A stretch of DNA of 19,426 nucleotides from Candidatus Nanohaloarchaea archaeon. GTDB lineage: Archaea; Nanohalarchaeota; Nanosalinia; Nanosalinales; Nanosalinaceae. Made by a program: the position numbers and the translations under genes. The DNA lies in assembly GCA_042218075.1 (NCBI GenBank), contig JBDGRK010000023.1, positions 22,111 through 41,536 of the forward strand, read 5' to 3'. A model generated the notes under the pieces. The model searched no databases. It was not told the origin of the DNA and worked only from the letters and a program-made list of their open reading frames with translations. Shown here piece after piece: positions 11,160-19,426 of this stretch (positions are counted from its first letter, which is position 1; each line of letters begins with the position of its first letter).

Positions 11160-11471
11160 ATGGTAGTCGGCAAAAAAGAAAAAGGAGACATCGAACTCGA
11201 CACACGAGCAAAGAAAATCAAAGCACAAGGCAAAATATACCGTCCAAGAAAAGCACGAGGATACAAAGTATACAGCGACACCAACGACAGGAAACGCCGG
11301 GACGTATTCGTACCCGGGAAAATGAAAGAAGACTTCGGAAAAGACCTGCCGGACACAGCTAAAGTATTCTGGAACGGTCAATATCGAAAAGCAAAGCTGT
11401 CCTTCAGACGTGGCAAAGGCCGGAACATCCTTGTCTACCAGTTCCGAGTGTCTTCACGCGCACAGAAATAA
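11160..11471 (+). CDS. Highly basic beta-rich protein, paralog A
   Basis: K/R-rich; aligns with 11486-11764; TTTATAAA box at 11117-11124. Confidence 0.8.
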   Translation: MVVGKKEKGDIELDTRAKKIKAQGKIYRPRKARGYKVYSDTNDRKRRDVFVPGKMKEDFGKDLPDTAKVFWNGQYRKAKLSFRRGKGRNILVYQFRVSSRAQK

Positions 11472-11485
11472 TAGGTGATGCACAA

Positions 11486-11764
11486 GTGGCTACCAAAGTC
11501 GGTAAACAAAGCTACAGGCTGGACAAAAAGGCTGTATTGAAAATCCCTGGAGAAGGCAAATTCAAAGAACCTGTGTACGTCTACACCGGAGACAACAAGA
11601 AGATGCGGACGATCTTCATGCCGAACGGTGTCTCTTACCGGAAGGCTCCGGATAAGGCGAAGGTTGAGTTCAATGGTGAGACGTATACTGCGGAGAAGTT
11701 CGGCAGTAATACGAATCAGCGTCCGAGCTATGACTTTGAAGTGTCCTCGGCTTTCCAACCTTAG
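11486..11764 (+). CDS. Basic beta-rich protein, paralog B
   Basis: AGGTGA SD, GTG start; shares PDxAKVxxNG and YxFxVSS with paralog A. Confidence 0.8.
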   Translation: MATKVGKQSYRLDKKAVLKIPGEGKFKEPVYVYTGDNKKMRTIFMPNGVSYRKAPDKAKVEFNGETYTAEKFGSNTNQRPSYDFEVSSAFQP

Positions 11765-15000: not shown

Positions 15001-15474
15001 TTAATCTGACTGTGCTGCTACAAGCCTGATGCAGTACGGGTCAACCACTCTTTCTTCCATCTTGTTCACCCATTTGTGATCCTCGTCGCTCATCACTCCG
15101 CGTTCGTGTAATCTCTCGTGGACACAGGTACGGTACATCAGGTACGGCGGCAAATCTTTCTCGACGTAGATCTTGTCGTCAATACCTGATACAGTGCTGC
15201 CAACAGTATTCCCTGATACAATACTGTAGTTATCAGGTACAACCGCTGTCGTGAAACCGTTCGAAGAAAACTCTTCGATCTGCGAGGTATCAGCAGGTAG
15301 TTTCCCGTAAGTAATTCCCAGGTTGTATCCAAGCATTATACTGATTGCGGATATACCGATCAGTGTGAAACCGTACATCCACTGAATTCTTTTGATCTGC
15401 CGTCTTTTCTCTTCTAGTTCCCGGCGTAGAGCCTGCTCTAACTGGTGTCTATGCGGAGAGGTTTCGTCCTTCAC
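15001..15474 (-). CDS. Membrane-anchored zincin-like metallopeptidase
   Basis: TM helix then KIYVEKDL...TCVHERLHERG...DH (HExxH plus possible third ligand). Confidence 0.75.
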   Translation of the reverse strand: MKDETSPHRHQLEQALRRELEEKRRQIKRIQWMYGFTLIGISAISIMLGYNLGITYGKLPADTSQIEEFSSNGFTTAVVPDNYSIVSGNTVGSTVSGIDDKIYVEKDLPPYLMYRTCVHERLHERGVMSDEDHKWVNKMEERVVDPYCIRLVAAQSD

Positions 15475-16589: not shown

Positions 16590-16843
16590 TTGTCGAGGCT
16601 CCAGAAGTAGGTGTGTTGGCCTCCGCCGGCTTCGGGTCTTTCTTGGATTTTGAGGTTGTTGTTTGAGGTGAAGTAGTTGGAGCCGCTGGTGAGTATTGCT
16701 TTGATGTAGCTTTTTGACAGGTTGATTTCTGGCTCTATTTTTTGTGCTAGGTCGCTTGTTTTGAGTTCTTGGTTGTTTTGCAGTGCTTTTTCTGCTTTGT
16801 CTCCTATTTTGACGTGTTTTTCGTTGTCGGGTTTGAATACCAT
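16586..16843 (-). CDS. Winged-helix DNA-binding protein (candidate repressor/excisionase)
   Basis: LKTSDLAQKI...LSKSYIKAIL...beta-wing GGGQHTYFWSL; divergent from the integrase; minus-strand TATATAAA at 16872-16879. Confidence 0.7.
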   Translation of the reverse strand: MVFKPDNEKHVKIGDKAEKALQNNQELKTSDLAQKIEPEINLSKSYIKAILTSGSNYFTSNNNLKIQERPEAGGGQHTYFWSLDK

Positions 16844-17052
16844 CTTTTGTTTTTTGTTGTGTGTTTTCTTCTTTATATATCTTATTGATATGTATCGATA
16901 TATAACGATATTCAGATTTAGAAAATCCTATTTTTCAGAAACCAGCGTTTCTACACCGGTTTTACCCGGCTACCACAGGGCAAACAACGGTGTTTTCGGA
17001 CTCTACCATAGTTTCCGCACACATTTTTATTTACTAAATCCTAATTTAGTCC

Positions 17053-17997
17053 GTGACCGAACAACTCGACAACCACCTAGACAACTTCCACAACTGGGCA
17101 AAAAAATCCATCGAAGAGAGCTCCGCTGACAACTACAAAACCACAGTAAAAGGCTTCTACCGCAACTCCAACCGCGACACACCCATCCAGCTAACCGACA
17201 ACGAAACACGGATAGAACAAGTCAGCGAAGACATCGCCAACCACATCACCAGCCGCTCCATGAAATTCAGCCTCAAAAAATACTTCAACTGGCTCAGCCT
17301 CCAAGCCACGAGTGTTCAAAAGGAACGCACAGCCAGCTTCCTGAAAAACAAGATCAACAAAGTACCCATAGAAGAATCCAAAAGCGACATCGAAAACAAG
17401 GTTATCTCCGCCGAAACCCTTGCCCAAGTCACCAAAGAAGCCGACCAAACCGACACCGAACTCGGACTCATGCTCCGAATGATGTACGAGACCGGCGCAC
17501 GGTTCTCAGGGATGAACAGACTGCTGTGGAGAGACGTACACAGGCAGGAGTTCAGAGGCGAACAACTTGAACCACATCAAGTCTTCATCTCACAAGACCG
17601 GAGCAAAGGCAAGGTTGACGGAGTAGTAGAGATCAGCGACCAAACCCTCACCCAACTGCAAGAGTTAGAGAACGAAAGAGAAGCTGATCCAAGCCAGCAG
17701 GTATTCTATCCCGAGATGAAAAACCAGTCCACCTACCAAAAAGCCTGGAGATTCTTCGACAACAACTGGCCGGAATACTCCACCCACTACTTCCGACACA
17801 GCCGCCTCACCCATCTCGGTTTGAAGATGCACGAAGAAGAGAACCTAGACTACCCTGCTATCAAAGAACGACTCCGGAGATACGCCCGGCACAAACAGGC
17901 ATCAACCACTGAGATCTACATAGAAATCGTGAAAGACAAACTCGCTCAGAAAAACCAAGACATGGAGAAATACCGGTCTGTATCCTGGTCAAACTGA
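17053..17997 (+). CDS. int: Tyrosine recombinase/integrase (XerC/D-like family)
   Basis: Catalytic motifs YETGAR, RSKG, HYFRHS, ARH, TTEIY; N-terminal SAM-like core-binding domain. Confidence 0.95.
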   Translation: MTEQLDNHLDNFHNWAKKSIEESSADNYKTTVKGFYRNSNRDTPIQLTDNETRIEQVSEDIANHITSRSMKFSLKKYFNWLSLQATSVQKERTASFLKNKINKVPIEESKSDIENKVISAETLAQVTKEADQTDTELGLMLRMMYETGARFSGMNRLLWRDVHRQEFRGEQLEPHQVFISQDRSKGKVDGVVEISDQTLTQLQELENEREADPSQQVFYPEMKNQSTYQKAWRFFDNNWPEYSTHYFRHSRLTHLGLKMHEEENLDYPAIKERLRRYARHKQASTTEIYIEIVKDKLAQKNQDMEKYRSVSWSN

Positions 17998-18022
17998 AAA
18001 AGACCGGCATACAAAATATACT

Positions 18023-18247
18023 ATGGAACAAGATCTAGACTAACAGTACGGACTCCAAATAGAAAACAAGATGCTGCTATCAGCGTACAGCCAATAGCTC
18101 TCACGCAGAAACATCACCAACGACACCTACCACGAAAACCACCAGAGAGCAGCAGCCTACCTCGACCCCGAAAGCAGCGAAGATCTTCCGCCGACAGGCT
18201 GGACAGAATGCATGGACCTGATCAGCCAACGCGTCAACGAAGAGTAA
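18023..18247 (+). pseudogene. Possible decayed 74-codon gene with two in-frame stops
   Basis: MEQDLD*QYGLQIENKMLLSAYSQ*LSRRNITNDTYHENHQRAAAYLDPESSEDLPPTGWTECMDLISQRVNEE in one frame, with codon style like the integrase. Confidence 0.4.
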
Positions 18248-18261
18248 GAAATTAAAGAATA

Positions 18262-18725
18262 TTCAGCAGAAAGAGGTTCTCTACGGGTTTTGGCGCACTC
18301 CGCGCCCCAGGTTTCCCCCGCTATTTCACTTGGAAATTCTACTTCACTAAGTCTCTAACTGCATTTCAGTCTCTCGACCTTATCACAGTTCCAGCCGACT
18401 TTATGATTTTGAAACAGTAGAGACGCCAACTGTAGACTTGGCTTCACCGGGAATTCCGGACTGAGTCTAGTACCGTAGCAGAACCCTGCTGAACGATCAA
18501 AGTTGGTTGGAGTTGGCTTCCTCAACGCACACGGACGCGGTGATGAAAACGAGGTCACTTCGCGCCGCCGCAGTGCGCGTCATCGGAAGCCGACTCATCG
18601 ACATTTGAAAACAGGTAGATCGGCTTCCCAAAGATTTGATAGCCGCTTGTTTTCAAGCCTGCAGCCTTCCAGCTTCTTCCAGCGTTCCACACGAAGCCGC
18701 TTTGATGCAGGCCATCAAACATACA
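18262..18725 (-). ncRNA. Candidate large structured non-coding RNA (~460 nt)
   Basis: Nearly continuous helices including a 20-bp long-range closing stem (18473-18493 with 18262-18286), GNRA-type loops, G-U pairs mostly favouring the minus strand, upstream TATA and downstream T-rich tract; no credible ORF. Confidence 0.75.
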
Positions 18726-18746
18726 AGTATATAATACCAACGCCTG

Positions 18747-18760
18747 TTTATAAAAATACC
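18747..18760 (-). promoter_or_regulatory. TATA box for the candidate ncRNA
   Basis: Minus strand GGTATTTTTATAAA, about 25-30 nt upstream of the first helix. Confidence 0.6.
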
Positions 18761-18791
18761 GTAAACGCATTTCAACTTTTAGGTCTGCATT

Positions 18792-19160
18792 CTAGCCGAA
18801 CACCTCTTCGTAGACGCTTCCTTTGCCTTCCGCGATCTCCCAGACACCGAACGCTGACGCCAACCCGAACATGACGAACAAAGTGATTAGGTTCCCGGTT
18901 TTCATCACTTTCTGATTCAGGTACTGCACTAGGCCGCCGCCTTGGAAATTTAAGTAGGATACCGCAAAGAATCCGAGAACGACTACAAGCATTGACAGAC
19001 TGATGTTACCTGCTATGTTGATATTCGGTATTAGATCGACATAGCTAACAAGTGCTGCTATACCGAATGCAAGTAGTATAAGCGATAGCTCGGTTGGCAG
19101 AGGTGATACGGACGTAGTATGTGCCGCGACTGTTTGGAAGGTTTCCTTTACCGGATACAC
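18792..19160 (-). CDS. Three-TM membrane protein
   Basis: Hydrophobic helices; minus-strand TTTAAAAA box at 19184-19191 fits a leaderless GTG start. Confidence 0.75.
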   Translation of the reverse strand: MYPVKETFQTVAAHTTSVSPLPTELSLILLAFGIAALVSYVDLIPNINIAGNISLSMLVVVLGFFAVSYLNFQGGGLVQYLNQKVMKTGNLITLFVMFGLASAFGVWEIAEGKGSVYEEVFG

Positions 19161-19199
19161 ACAAATATCTTTATCAAAACTACTTTTTAAATCAGATGT

Positions 19200-19426
19200 G
19201 TGCCACCGATCATAGGAGACTACTGGTTATTCGACTGCCTCAAGATCGCAGTCCCAGCAATCCTGATATCGTTGACAGCGTTGATCGGGCCAACCGCCTA
19301 CACAGTCAGCAAATACGGACTGAAAGCCTCCGCATTACTGCTATCCAAGCTTCCTGCACGCATCGCCGGATACGCCCTTCTCGCATTCCGGCAAAAAATC
19401 ACAATCATAGCAGCGACGTTGACCAC
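19200..19426 (+). CDS. 5' part of a probable membrane protein (MPPIIGDYWLFDCLKIAVPAILISLTALIG...), runs off the window
   Basis: Open hydrophobic frame from GTG 19200 to the window end; start uncertain. Confidence 0.55.
   Translation, partial: MPPIIGDYWLFDCLKIAVPAILISLTALIGPTAYTVSKYGLKASALLLSKLPARIAGYALLAFRQKITIIAATLT

What the first reader, a model, noticed from the sequence alone, without database searches (positions are those of the whole stretch)
18262..18725. Large, ornate non-coding RNA encoded by an archaeal virus-like element next to the integrase
Seen: on the minus strand, after TTTTTATAAA (about 18747-18756), almost the whole region folds. Helices are GCCUGCA/UGCAGGC (18706-18712 with 18657-18663), UUGAAAACA/UGUUUUCAA (18648-18656 with 18605-18613, inner CGGCU/AGCCG) and an ~87-nt extended hairpin (18510-18596). 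A ~230-nt 3' domain is closed by a 20-bp interrupted long-range helix UUCAGCAG-GGUUCU-g-CUACGG / CCGUAG-AGAACC-ucuuu-CUGCUGAA (18473-18493 with 18262-18286). Inside it are UAGACU/AGUCUA, CCGG/CCGG, UUUCA/UGAAA, GUC-GAGA-GAC, AUUUC/GAAAU, GG-GAAA-CC and GGCGC/GCGCC helices, and a U-rich tract follows. Known: large ornate RNAs such as GOLLD and ROOL occur in bacterial prophages; I know of no well-described counterpart in archaeal viruses. Inference: a stand-alone structured RNA. Its 3' end (GAAGUA...hairpin...CGG-GG-GAAA-CC...AAAACCCG-UAGAG) loosely recalls my memory of the GOLLD-type 3' domain, so it could be a divergent archaeal relative or a new class.
Basis: partly seen in the sequence, partly recalled or inferred. 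Interest (0 to 1): 0.88.

Follow-up and report, generated by a model that had tools for sequence, protein, structure and literature searches.

The report
Small gene with folded RNA tail
A 540-base gene-poor block in an orphan mobile element of a tiny salt-lake archaeon has a very strong promoter, a likely 55-codon gene and a tightly folding 230-base tail, but no relatives exist to show that the fold matters.

Summary
The 3' domain (18262-18493, minus strand) folds at z -4.39, and its three-part closing helix has pair probabilities of 0.97-0.99. It carries two GNRA hairpins on the minus strand only; 3 of 1200 random windows reach two.

The energy signal is modest once calibrated. Shuffled copies of the scaffold give about two equally good structures of at least 200 nt per 41.5 kb, and a stronger fold (z -6.6) lies antisense to a real gene elsewhere in the window.

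No Rfam family matches (GOLLD, ROOL, RNase P, introns), so the recalled GOLLD likeness is not supported. No homolog was found in any collection searched, so covariation cannot be tested.

The TATA/BRE core at 18746-18760 is the best promoter match on the whole scaffold. It places the start about 2 nt before an ATG that opens a 55-codon frame with coding-like codon usage, so the 5' third is probably a leaderless mRNA.

Best reading (0.4): one minus-strand transcript, a small ORF plus a structured non-coding 3' domain, in a swappable cassette of an orphan, probably circular element.

The parts
18746..18760 (-). Archaeal TATA/BRE promoter core (GGTATTTTTATAAAC). Predicted transcription start is about 18724.
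   Evidence: A PWM was built from 72 host leaderless promoters. This core scores 10.5 and is the only position at or above 10 on both strands of scaffold C16. The training genes' 75th percentile is 7.9. Host genes show a TATA peak at -30 to -27 from the ATG.
18555..18722 (-). ORF1: 55 codons plus the TGA stop. The ATG lies 2 nt after the predicted start, so it would be a leaderless small gene. It is an orphan.
   Evidence: Codon log-odds is 0.149 per codon. Only 1.5% of 3875 non-coding-frame ORFs reach this; the integrase scores 0.177. The promoter-plus-ATG score is reached by 1.8% of 1534 random ATGs. A gene caller called it on the source contig, giving P0002. It has no true homolog, no Pfam family, and a low AF2 pLDDT of 55.8.
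18510..18596 (-). Long irregular hairpin spanning the ORF1 stop codon. Its internal loop GAUGA/UUGA resembles a kink-turn; that is my reading and was not tested.
   Evidence: The inverted-repeat arms 18510-18521 and 18585-18596 are 92% complementary. Pair probabilities are 0.78-0.96. It is the 2nd-best local duplex on the minus strand of C16.
18262..18493 (-). 3' domain: a 232-nt multi-branch fold closed by a 19-bp interrupted helix, with arms P2-P5 radiating from one junction.
   Evidence: MFE is -85.2 kcal/mol, z -4.39, with 0 of 200 shuffles as good. The same fold appears within the full transcript. The overlapping ORF2 frame (18358-18558) has non-coding-like codon usage (-0.197) and pI 9.6.
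18473..18492 (-). P1, 5' strand (UCAGCAG-GGUUCU-g-CUACGG). It pairs with 18263-18286.
   Evidence: pair probability 0.97-0.99.
18263..18286 (-). P1, 3' strand (CCGUAG-AGAACC-ucuuu-CUGCUGA).
18433..18469 (-). P2 hairpin (UAGACU ... CCGG-AAUUC-CCGG ... AGUCUA).
   Evidence: pair probabilities 0.80 and 0.97.
18338..18421 (-). P3 long arm ending in GGUC-GAGA-GACU. The GNRA loop is at 18372-18375.
   Evidence: pair probability 0.93-0.98; for the GNRA count.
18309..18318 (-). P4 GGG-GAAA-CCU hairpin. The GNRA loop is at 18312-18315.
   Evidence: Pair probability is only 0.48.
18292..18306 (-). P5 GGCGC-GGAGU-GCGCC hairpin.
   Evidence: pair probability 0.96.
18236..18261 (-). U-rich tail after P1 (runs of three U, none of five). 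It is a possible weak archaeal terminator.
   Evidence: Read. The simple terminator scan found none, but that scan uses a bacterial-type pattern.
18098..18247 (+). Convergent open frame of 49 codons. It is acidic (pI 4.6) and has no canonical start, so it is probably the 3' piece of a gene. It ends 15 nt from P1.
   Evidence: Translation. Codon score is 0.251. By my own position arithmetic, 4 of the 6 X2/X1 differences listed in it fall on third codon positions.
17053..17997 (+). Tyrosine integrase, 314 aa.
   Evidence: PF00589, E 1.3e-10. Its only relative is in G066 at 34% identity, found in 2 of 401 genomes including the window's own.
18792..19160 (-). Upstream orphan gene of 122 aa whose sequence looks hydrophobic by eye. 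It ends 32 nt before the promoter core.
   Evidence: codon score 0.243. No relatives were found.

Best explanation
The block 18248-18791 is one minus-strand transcription unit of an orphan, probably circular mobile element of about 41 kb, binned with a roughly 1.1-Mb nanohaloarchaeon-like genome from a salt lake.

A very strong archaeal promoter (core 18746-18760) starts transcription near 18724. The first 168 nt are translated without a leader into a 55-residue orphan protein (ORF1). The remaining 290 nt or so are non-coding and fold into a long hairpin across the stop codon, followed by a compact 232-nt multi-branch domain. That domain is closed by a 19-bp helix, carries two GNRA loops and ends in a U-rich tail.

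The steps below are inferred, not shown. The 3' domain would act in cis. It would cap and stabilise the 3' end of the transcript. It would also stop this strong transcript from running antisense into the convergent gene fragment and the integrase gene, which begin 15 nt beyond it. It could equally accumulate as a stable 3'-derived RNA with a function in trans.

What is shown: the helices, their energy statistics, the promoter match, the codon statistics and the cassette boundaries. What is inferred: that the block is transcribed, that ORF1 is translated, and any function of the fold.
For: Promoter:
- It is the only position scoring at or above 10 on both strands of C16 with a PWM of 72 host leaderless promoters.
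- Its predicted start is about 18724, and the ATG is at 18722.
- Host genes have a TATA peak at -30 to -27.

ORF1:
- Codon score is 0.149, reached by 1.5% of 3875 non-coding-frame ORFs.
- The promoter-plus-ATG score is reached by 1.8% of 1534 random ATGs.

The 3' part is non-coding:
- ORF2 has a codon score of -0.197 (43% of non-coding-frame ORFs score as high; 1.8% of true coding pieces score as low) and pI 9.6.
- It has no homolog.
- No second promoter core lies upstream of the domain on the minus strand; the next best scores 7.1 and points to about 18705.

Fold:
- z is -4.39 with 0 of 200 shuffles as good.
- Helix probabilities are 0.8-0.99 in the full transcript.
- The MFE is better on the minus strand (-85.2) than on the plus strand (-75.8).
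- There are 2 GNRA hairpins on the minus strand and 0 on the plus, against 3 of 1200 random windows with 2 or more.

Cassette:
- In run X2, contigs about 93% identical cover 18098-18476 and 18796-19426. Other contigs diverge just after 18244 and rejoin at 18782, which are the block's edges.

Gene-poor block:
- It lies in the second-largest coding-poor gap of C16.
Against: - No homolog of the block was found anywhere, so there is no covariation and no test of selection on the fold.
- The energy signal is ordinary after calibration. Real C16 has 4 structures of at least 200 nt at z <= -4.6, and two shuffled copies have 2 and 2. The closing helix ranks 9th among local arm pairs on the minus strand.
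- A stronger fold (z -6.62) lies antisense to a real-looking gene in the same window. Strong folds therefore occur here without an obvious RNA gene.
- The plus strand of the block also folds well, at z -3.79 and -4.22.
- ORF1 has no relatives among 5.8 billion and 1.84 billion proteins. The two HMMER hits are repeat-protein artefacts. It is not acidic (pI 6.7, against a host median of 4.9), and its AF2 confidence is low.
- The two X2 differences listed inside ORF2 are both synonymous in the ORF2 frame, with a chance probability of about 0.14. This slightly favours ORF2 being coding.
- No run of five U follows the domain.
- Two of the three random windows with 2 or more GNRA hairpins lie inside ORFs, one of them purine-rich, so the GNRA test is not proof.
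Confidence: 0.4

Rival explanations
1. This is a stand-alone non-coding RNA of about 460-490 nt. The whole transcript from about 18724 to about 18250 is a structured RNA, and the ATG at its 5' end and the 55-codon frame are coincidental.
For: The strongest promoter match on the scaffold would suit an abundant RNA. The whole 464 nt folds at z -3.98. The 5' helices have pair probabilities of 0.85-0.99. ORF1 is an orphan, not acidic and poorly modelled.
Against: An ATG sits 2 nt from the predicted start and opens 55 codons with coding-like usage (1.5% and 1.8% tails). The 5' part folds at only z -2.50 on the minus strand, worse than on the plus strand. No Rfam family matches. No homologs were found.
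Confidence: 0.2
2. This is non-functional spacer, or decayed sequence at a recombination hot spot. On this reading the folds are chance and the promoter-like AT-rich core is not used or drives nothing of consequence.
For: Shuffled sequence yields equally good structures of at least 200 nt about twice per 41.5 kb. There are 8 better local arm pairs on the same strand. A z -6.6 fold occurs antisense to a gene. The neighbourhood is mosaic: X2 lacks this integrase, contigs break at 17025, 18043, 18244 and 18782, and a start-less gene fragment abuts the block. No homolog exists to show conservation.
Against: Several independent oddities coincide in one 540-nt block: the best promoter core on the scaffold, an ATG at the right distance, coding-like codons in ORF1, z -4.4, and two strand-specific GNRA hairpins. 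A relative about 93% identical keeps the 3' domain in a second study's run.
Confidence: 0.2
3. The block is a purely protein-coding cassette. ORF1 (55 aa) and ORF2 (67 aa, GTG start overlapping the ORF1 stop as GTGA) are both translated, and the RNA structure is incidental.
For: The GTGA overlap is typical of coupled genes. Both X2 differences listed within ORF2 are synonymous. In one X2 contig an insertion at 18388 and a deletion at 18400 together keep the ORF2 frame.
Against: ORF2's codon score of -0.197 lies in the non-coding range; only 1.8% of true coding pieces score as low. It is basic (pI 9.6) in a proteome with median pI 4.9. The gene caller did not call it and it has no homolog. It would end at 18355, leaving 90 nt of the domain outside it. 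The synonymous evidence rests on n = 2 (p about 0.14).
Confidence: 0.1
4. This is a DNA-level element rather than an RNA: the attP or arm sites of the neighbouring integrase, a replication origin, or a MITE-like insertion bounded by the 19-20-bp inverted repeat.
For: It lies next to a tyrosine integrase. The helices are almost all Watson-Crick, so both strands fold. A 232-bp unit with 19-bp terminal inverted repeats has the shape of a MITE. A 14-nt inverted repeat (18231-18244 and 18804-18817, 13 of 14 complementary) flanks the block. A weak CM hit (12.6 bits) to an 83-nt hairpin lies 34 nt beyond the only related integrase gene, in G066.
Against: - There is only one copy in the genome, and I see no target-site duplication in the flanks.
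- No match to any host tRNA or other host site was found. Short matches of 14-23 nt are at chance level and none lies at a tRNA.
- The 24-nt matches in G025 and G064 are short; the G025 match, the only one inspected, falls in the middle of a 680-aa gene.
- No iterons or tandem repeats are present.
- The largest non-coding gap, 1.6 kb, sits just upstream of the primase gene and is the likelier origin.
- X2 keeps the block without this integrase.
- The G066 hairpin folds no better than shuffles, z -1.19.
- GNRA loops are strand-specific, which a DNA site does not explain.
Confidence: 0.1

Closest known systems
Dual-function RNAs: a small ORF plus a structured regulatory domain on one transcript, such as Staphylococcus RNAIII (recalled from the literature; no paper read here)
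   Same: The size class is a few hundred nt. A short ORF sits near the 5' end and is followed by a multi-hairpin non-coding 3' domain. A strong promoter of its own drives it.
   Different: No sequence or Rfam relation. The setting is an archaeal mobile element and the ORF is leaderless. No target complementarity was found. Neither expression nor function is shown.
GOLLD and ROOL large RNAs of bacterial prophages (Rfam families; I recall them as being in the library)
   Same: A large, multi-branch RNA candidate carried by a mobile element, with GNRA loops.
   Different: No match to any of the 4227 Rfam families, at gathering scores or at E up to 10. The well-supported structured part is about 230-300 nt, not 500-800 nt. 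No family of homologs exists. The host is archaeal.
Structured 3' UTRs and 3'-derived small RNAs, and hairpin-plus-U-tract transcript ends at convergent genes
   Same: A stable closing helix followed by a U-rich tail, placed 15 nt from the end of a convergent frame. No promoter of its own.
   Different: It is far larger and more branched than a terminator hairpin. Archaeal termination generally needs oligo-U rather than a hairpin (general knowledge), and there is no run of five U here.
MITEs and other small elements with terminal inverted repeats
   Same: A 232-bp unit bounded by an interrupted 19-20-bp inverted repeat.
   Different: Single copy in the genome. No target-site duplication. The only relative sits in the same context.

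Membership tests
GOLLD / ROOL / HEARO and other Rfam large RNAs | Match to the family covariance model (sequence plus structure) at or near its gathering score | tested here: not met
   cmscan of the whole window found 0 matches at gathering scores. The permissive scan of 17900-19000 on both strands found only mir-726 (15.6 bits, E 7.4) and IMES-2 (12.1 bits, E 3.1). That these families are in Rfam 15 is my recollection.
Archaeal RNase P RNA (RF00373) | Match to the model; a core gene shared with near relatives | tested here: not met
   The search of the window's own genome at E up to 10 gave two weak hits, on C10 and C6, and none on C16. Three of 4 same-genus genomes have a full-length sub-threshold match elsewhere. 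The block itself has no counterpart in any same-genus genome.
Archaeal SRP RNA (RF01857) | Match to the model | tested here: not met
   The genome's SRP RNA is at C31:10241-10503 (108 bits). The block is not hit.
Group I / group II introns and small ribozymes in Rfam | Match to the model | tested here: not met
   No hit in the window. The same tool does find a group I intron elsewhere in this genome (57.9 bits), so the method works on this organism.
MITE-like element | Several copies in the genome | tested here: not met
   One copy only. The CM search found the window's own copy only, in 1 of 70 genomes.
MITE-like element | Target-site duplication flanking the terminal inverted repeats | tested here: not met
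   The flanks read ...GAATA|TTCAGCAG and CTGCTGAA|CGATC..., with no direct repeat.
attP of the neighbouring tyrosine integrase | A core of identity with a host site (usually a tRNA gene) | tested here: inconclusive
   There is no significant match to the binned host genome, and none of the short matches lies at a tRNA. ARAGORN found only 12 tRNAs in this 92%-complete MAG, and the true host may not be this bin.
Structured functional RNA (any class) | Compensatory base changes across homologs | not testable with these tools
   No homolog sequences could be retrieved. The X2 contigs can only be seen as a partial list of differences. Of the three shared ones, two fall in unpaired positions and one in a 4-bp helix.
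Structured functional RNA (any class) | A discrete transcript of the predicted strand and ends | not testable with these tools
   No RNA run holds the stretch. The promoter is predicted only.
Dual-function RNA (small ORF plus structured domain) | A translated small ORF | tested here: inconclusive
   Codon usage and leaderless geometry favour it. The lack of any homolog and the low-confidence model do not.

The most novel reading that the evidence does not exclude
The 3' domain (possibly the whole transcript) is the first member of a new class of large, multi-branch structured RNA carried by mobile elements of nanohaloarchaea (DPANN archaea). It would be expressed from the element's strongest promoter and would act in trans, for example with a host or element protein, rather than as a mere transcript end.
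Probability: 0.25. Interest if true: 0.65.

Novelty: new member of a known kind. Interest (0 to 1): 0.35.

Why it matters
Large structured RNAs of unknown function are known mainly from bacteria and their prophages. A paper on nanohaloarchaeal viruses that I searched for six terms (non-coding, ncRNA, noncoding, structured RNA, integrase, intergenic) has none of the RNA terms. That is one paper, not a literature survey.

If the 230-nt domain is a real RNA, it would be a first handle on RNA-based functions in the mobile elements of DPANN archaea, whose genes are almost all unannotatable. It would also be a small, tractable folding target.

As it stands it is a single orphan sequence with suggestive but not decisive statistics. 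Its value is as a candidate to check in hypersaline metatranscriptomes.

Tried and rejected
Homolog searches that found nothing useful:
- blastn of the block against 60 relatives and all 70 genomes of the phylum. These gave only 24-nt matches in G025 and G064. The G025 match falls in the middle of a 680-aa gene that I read by eye as an ADP-forming acetyl-CoA synthetase; the G064 match was not inspected. I rejected both as attB.
- blastn in 'distant' mode against phage records.
- Viral contigs queried with the integrase, the ORF2 translation and the upstream 122-aa protein.
- Metagenome contigs queried with the ORF2 translation.
- Pattern scans of viral, genome and metagenome contigs.
- The covariance model R1 of the 3' domain against the phylum: the window's own copy only, 1 of 70 genomes.
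- The upstream 122-aa protein in the phylum: own copy only, 1 of 70, and none in the 5.8-billion-protein set.

Relatives of the integrase: only G066, in 2 of 70 and 2 of 401 genomes including the window's own. That contig shares no other gene with C16. The 12.6-bit R1 hit beside it is an 83-nt hairpin with z -1.19. I keep it as a lead only.

RNase P idea: the 'AAAGUC' and 'AAAACCCG' strings recalled P4, but the two strands are not complementary and RF00373 does not hit the block. Rejected.

Inversion switch idea: I considered that the 14-nt inverted repeat flanking the block marks an invertible segment. The X2 loose end after 18244 does not read as the inverted block (read). Rejected.

ORB-like origin idea: 'TTTCCAAGTGAAATAGCGGGGG' resembles an origin recognition box only in my memory. 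There is no second copy and no AT-rich unwinding stretch between arms. Not pursued.

Expression: no RNA holder is listed for the stretch. This is no evidence either way. Runs X3 and X4 laid nothing.

ORF1:
- The AF2 single-sequence model has pLDDT 55.8 and is uninformative.
- ESM Atlas hits score 0.76, below any useful level.
- Pfam finds nothing for ORF1, ORF2 or the other frames.

PHROGs finds nothing for 10 element proteins.

Supplements were not asked for.
Full report
**Setting**

The window is G000:C16:22111-41536, in a 1.10-Mb genome of 40 contigs that is 92% complete. A run labelled salt lake metagenome holds the stretch. The genome's size, GC content near 0.47 and habitat fit a nanohaloarchaeon.

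C16 is a scaffold. There are 100 N at 22011-22110, so the window is the whole second piece. The window's last 313 nt repeat C16:1-313 at 90.7% identity, so the element is probably circular or terminally redundant, at about 41 kb.

Neither the window nor the first 20 kb of C16 has any blastn match in 5 near relatives; 6 different genomes were used over the two searches, the 4 same-genus genomes in both (0 of 5, 0 of 5). A host control locus matches 5 of 5. C16 is therefore an accessory element.

It encodes the following:
- a tyrosine integrase at 17053-17997 (PF00589, E 1.3e-10);
- a weak HerA/DUF87-like ATPase and a TSP_3-repeat protein;
- a DUF5906 primase-type protein.

PHROGs recognises none of the 10 proteins tried. 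The only relative of the integrase, at 34% identity, is in another genome of the same family; that is 2 of 70 and 2 of 401 genomes including the window's own. That contig shares no other gene with C16.

**The observation**

The MFE and centroid folds of the 464 nt recover them.

In a partition-function fold of the predicted full transcript, the mean pair probabilities are:
- three-part closing helix: 0.97-0.99;
- most inner helices: 0.8-0.98;
- the GAAA hairpin: 0.48.

The z-scores are -3.98 for the whole region and -4.39 for the 3' domain 18262-18493 on the minus strand. The 5' part scores -2.50 on the minus strand. The opposite strand gives -3.79 and -4.22.

**Calibration**

I picked the domain's boundaries to fit, so I scanned the whole scaffold on both strands with RNALfold-z. 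The domain scores -4.61 there and ranks about 20th. Four non-overlapping structures of at least 200 nt reach z <= -4.6. Two block-shuffled copies of the scaffold give 2 and 2.

A duplex-energy scan of the minus strand puts the closing helix 9th and the 87-nt hairpin 2nd. The best fold in the window is elsewhere: 15128-15377 on the plus strand, z -6.62. It lies antisense to a convincing membrane-anchored protein gene.

Energy alone therefore says little. I would expect a few hundredths of such a structure by chance in a 540-nt block.

A second, independent signal is better. The domain's MFE has two GNRA tetraloop hairpins (GAGA, GAAA) with stems of at least 3 bp on the minus strand and none on the plus strand. 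Only 3 of 1200 random 232-nt genome windows have two or more. One of those three abuts a group I intron next to the 16S gene. The other two lie inside ORFs, one of which is purine-rich.

**Known families**

No Rfam family reaches its gathering score in the window. The permissive scan of 17900-19000 lists only mir-726 (E 7.4) and IMES-2 (E 3.1).

The RNase P RNA model does not hit the block. The SRP RNA is on another contig.

**Coding or not**

The host uses leaderless genes. Among 816 long ORFs, TATA-like hexamers pile up at -30 to -27 from the ATG.

A PWM of 72 such promoters scores the core 18760-18746 on the minus strand at 10.5. That is the only position at or above 10 on either strand of C16. 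It predicts a start near 18724, 2 nt before the ATG at 18722.

That ATG opens 55 codons (ORF1):
- Its codon log-odds of 0.149 is reached by 1.5% of 3875 ORFs in non-coding frames. The integrase scores 0.177.
- Its promoter-plus-ATG score is reached by 1.8% of 1534 random ATGs.
- A gene caller called it on the source contig.
- Against it: there is no true homolog among 5.8 billion clustered proteins or 1.84 billion representatives. The two HMMER hits are repeat artefacts. Its pI is 6.7 against a host median of 4.9, and its pLDDT is 55.8.

I put ORF1 at roughly two in three to be a real gene.

ORF2 (18558-18358, GTGA overlap) scores -0.197, which is in the non-coding range, and has pI 9.6. It has no homolog. 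The two X2 differences listed inside it are both synonymous, but that has a chance probability of about 0.14.

No promoter core precedes the 3' domain on the minus strand. If the domain is expressed, it is the tail of the ORF1 transcript.

**Relatives**

Every search for homologs of the block failed.

One other public run (X2, a different study) holds contigs about 93% identical over 18098-18476, 87% over 18658-18725 and about 97% over 18843-19426. It holds nothing over the integrase, 17064-18031. Other X2 contigs leave the window's sequence just after 18244 and rejoin it at 18782. The block 18245-18781 therefore behaves as a replaceable cassette, and its neighbourhood is mosaic.

Only part of the list of differences was shown. 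Of the three shared ones inside the domain, two fall in unpaired positions and one in a 4-bp helix. This decides nothing.

**DNA-site rivals**

- The block is single-copy and has no target-site duplication, so it is not a MITE.
- No host site matches it above chance, and no short match lies at a tRNA.
- It has no iterons.
- The largest non-coding gap of the scaffold (1.6 kb) lies directly upstream of the primase gene and is the likelier origin.

**Verdict**

The most likely reading (0.4) is a single strong minus-strand transcription unit: a leaderless 55-codon ORF followed by about 290 nt of structured non-coding RNA. The 232-nt terminal domain, a 19-bp closing helix with four arms and two GNRA loops, sits 15 nt from a convergent gene fragment and the integrase gene. 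I infer that it stabilises and bounds the transcript, and that it may persist as a 3'-derived RNA.

The rivals are:
- a wholly non-coding RNA of about 470 nt (0.2);
- chance structure in a mosaic spacer (0.2);
- two small genes (0.1);
- a DNA site (0.1).

None can be settled without transcripts or relatives.

**Literature seen**

- For 10.1101/2025.02.15.638363 (viruses of nanohaloarchaea) I ran a term search and read section 9. It describes integrase-bearing spindle-shaped viruses and contains none of the terms non-coding, ncRNA, noncoding or structured RNA.
- For the two search listings I read titles and abstract starts only.
- RNAIII and the paper on group I introns in archaea are recalled, not read here.

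Noticed in passing
window 15128-15377 (+): This is the strongest fold in the window: a 250-nt multi-branch structure, MFE -88.8, z -6.62 (0 of 200 shuffles as good). The minus strand scores only -2.65. It lies antisense to a plausible membrane-anchored protein gene (15001-15474, minus strand). It holds short repeats: ATCAGGTAC x2, CAGGTACGG x2, GTGAAACCGT x2 and a 15-mer x2. Model R1 does not hit it. It could be an antisense RNA, a set of protein-binding sites, or chance.
   Followed up: partly
C16:22011-22110 and window 19114-19426 versus C16:1-313: C16 is a scaffold of two pieces joined by 100 N, and the window is the whole second piece. The window's end repeats the scaffold's start over 313 nt at 90.7% identity. 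This suggests a circular or terminally redundant element of about 41 kb with strain variation at the join.
   Followed up: partly
window 18098-18247 (+): This is an acidic 49-codon open frame with coding-like codon usage but no ATG, GTG or TTG start, and it ends 15 nt from the RNA domain. Four of 6 listed variant positions are third codon positions. X2 contigs start or break at 18043, 18071 and 18115. It is probably the 3' piece of a gene whose 5' part was replaced when the integrase module was acquired.
   Followed up: partly
G000 whole genome; G001, G002, G004: The window's own MAG (92% complete) has no RNase P RNA match (RF00373) at E <= 0.001. Three of 4 same-genus genomes have a full-length match at only 34-39 bits, well below the 84-bit gathering score. 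The RNase P RNA of this lineage is divergent, and here it is probably unassembled.
   Followed up: partly
G000:C28:10301-11087 (-), locus L020:1602-2388: A group I intron match (RF00028, 57.9 bits, E 5.5e-13) overlaps the last 59 nt of the archaeal SSU rRNA match (C28:11029-11201), which is cut by the contig end. It is an rRNA-associated group I intron in a nanohaloarchaeon-like genome.
   Followed up: no
C16:11087-12678 (locus L008): This is the largest coding-poor gap of the scaffold (1592 nt). It lies directly upstream of the DUF5906 primase-type gene, with a stretch of GC 0.385-0.39 at about 11300-11700 and strong AT skew beyond. It is a candidate replication origin.
   Followed up: partly
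locus L014:1331-1413 (+), G066:C56: An 83-nt hairpin lies 34 nt beyond the stop of the only related integrase gene, convergent with it. It matches the ends of model R1 (12.6 bits) and shares 'CGUAC ... AAAACC' at the junction and a three-part stem. It folds no better than shuffles (z -1.19). A run of five U follows it.
   Followed up: partly
window 16801-17074: The T-rich intergenic stretch upstream of the integrase gene folds well on both strands (z -3.1 and -3.9 in 240-nt windows; RNALfold z -4.74 for 16823-17074 on the plus strand). X2 shares 16800-17025 and then diverges at 17025, which is the left edge of the integrase module.
   Followed up: no
window 18231-18244 and 18804-18817: A 14-nt inverted repeat (13 of 14 complementary) flanks the block. 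It arises because both convergent frames end with the same codons for V-(N/Y)-E-E. I expect about 0.2 such repeats by chance in this 1.5-kb stretch.
   Followed up: partly
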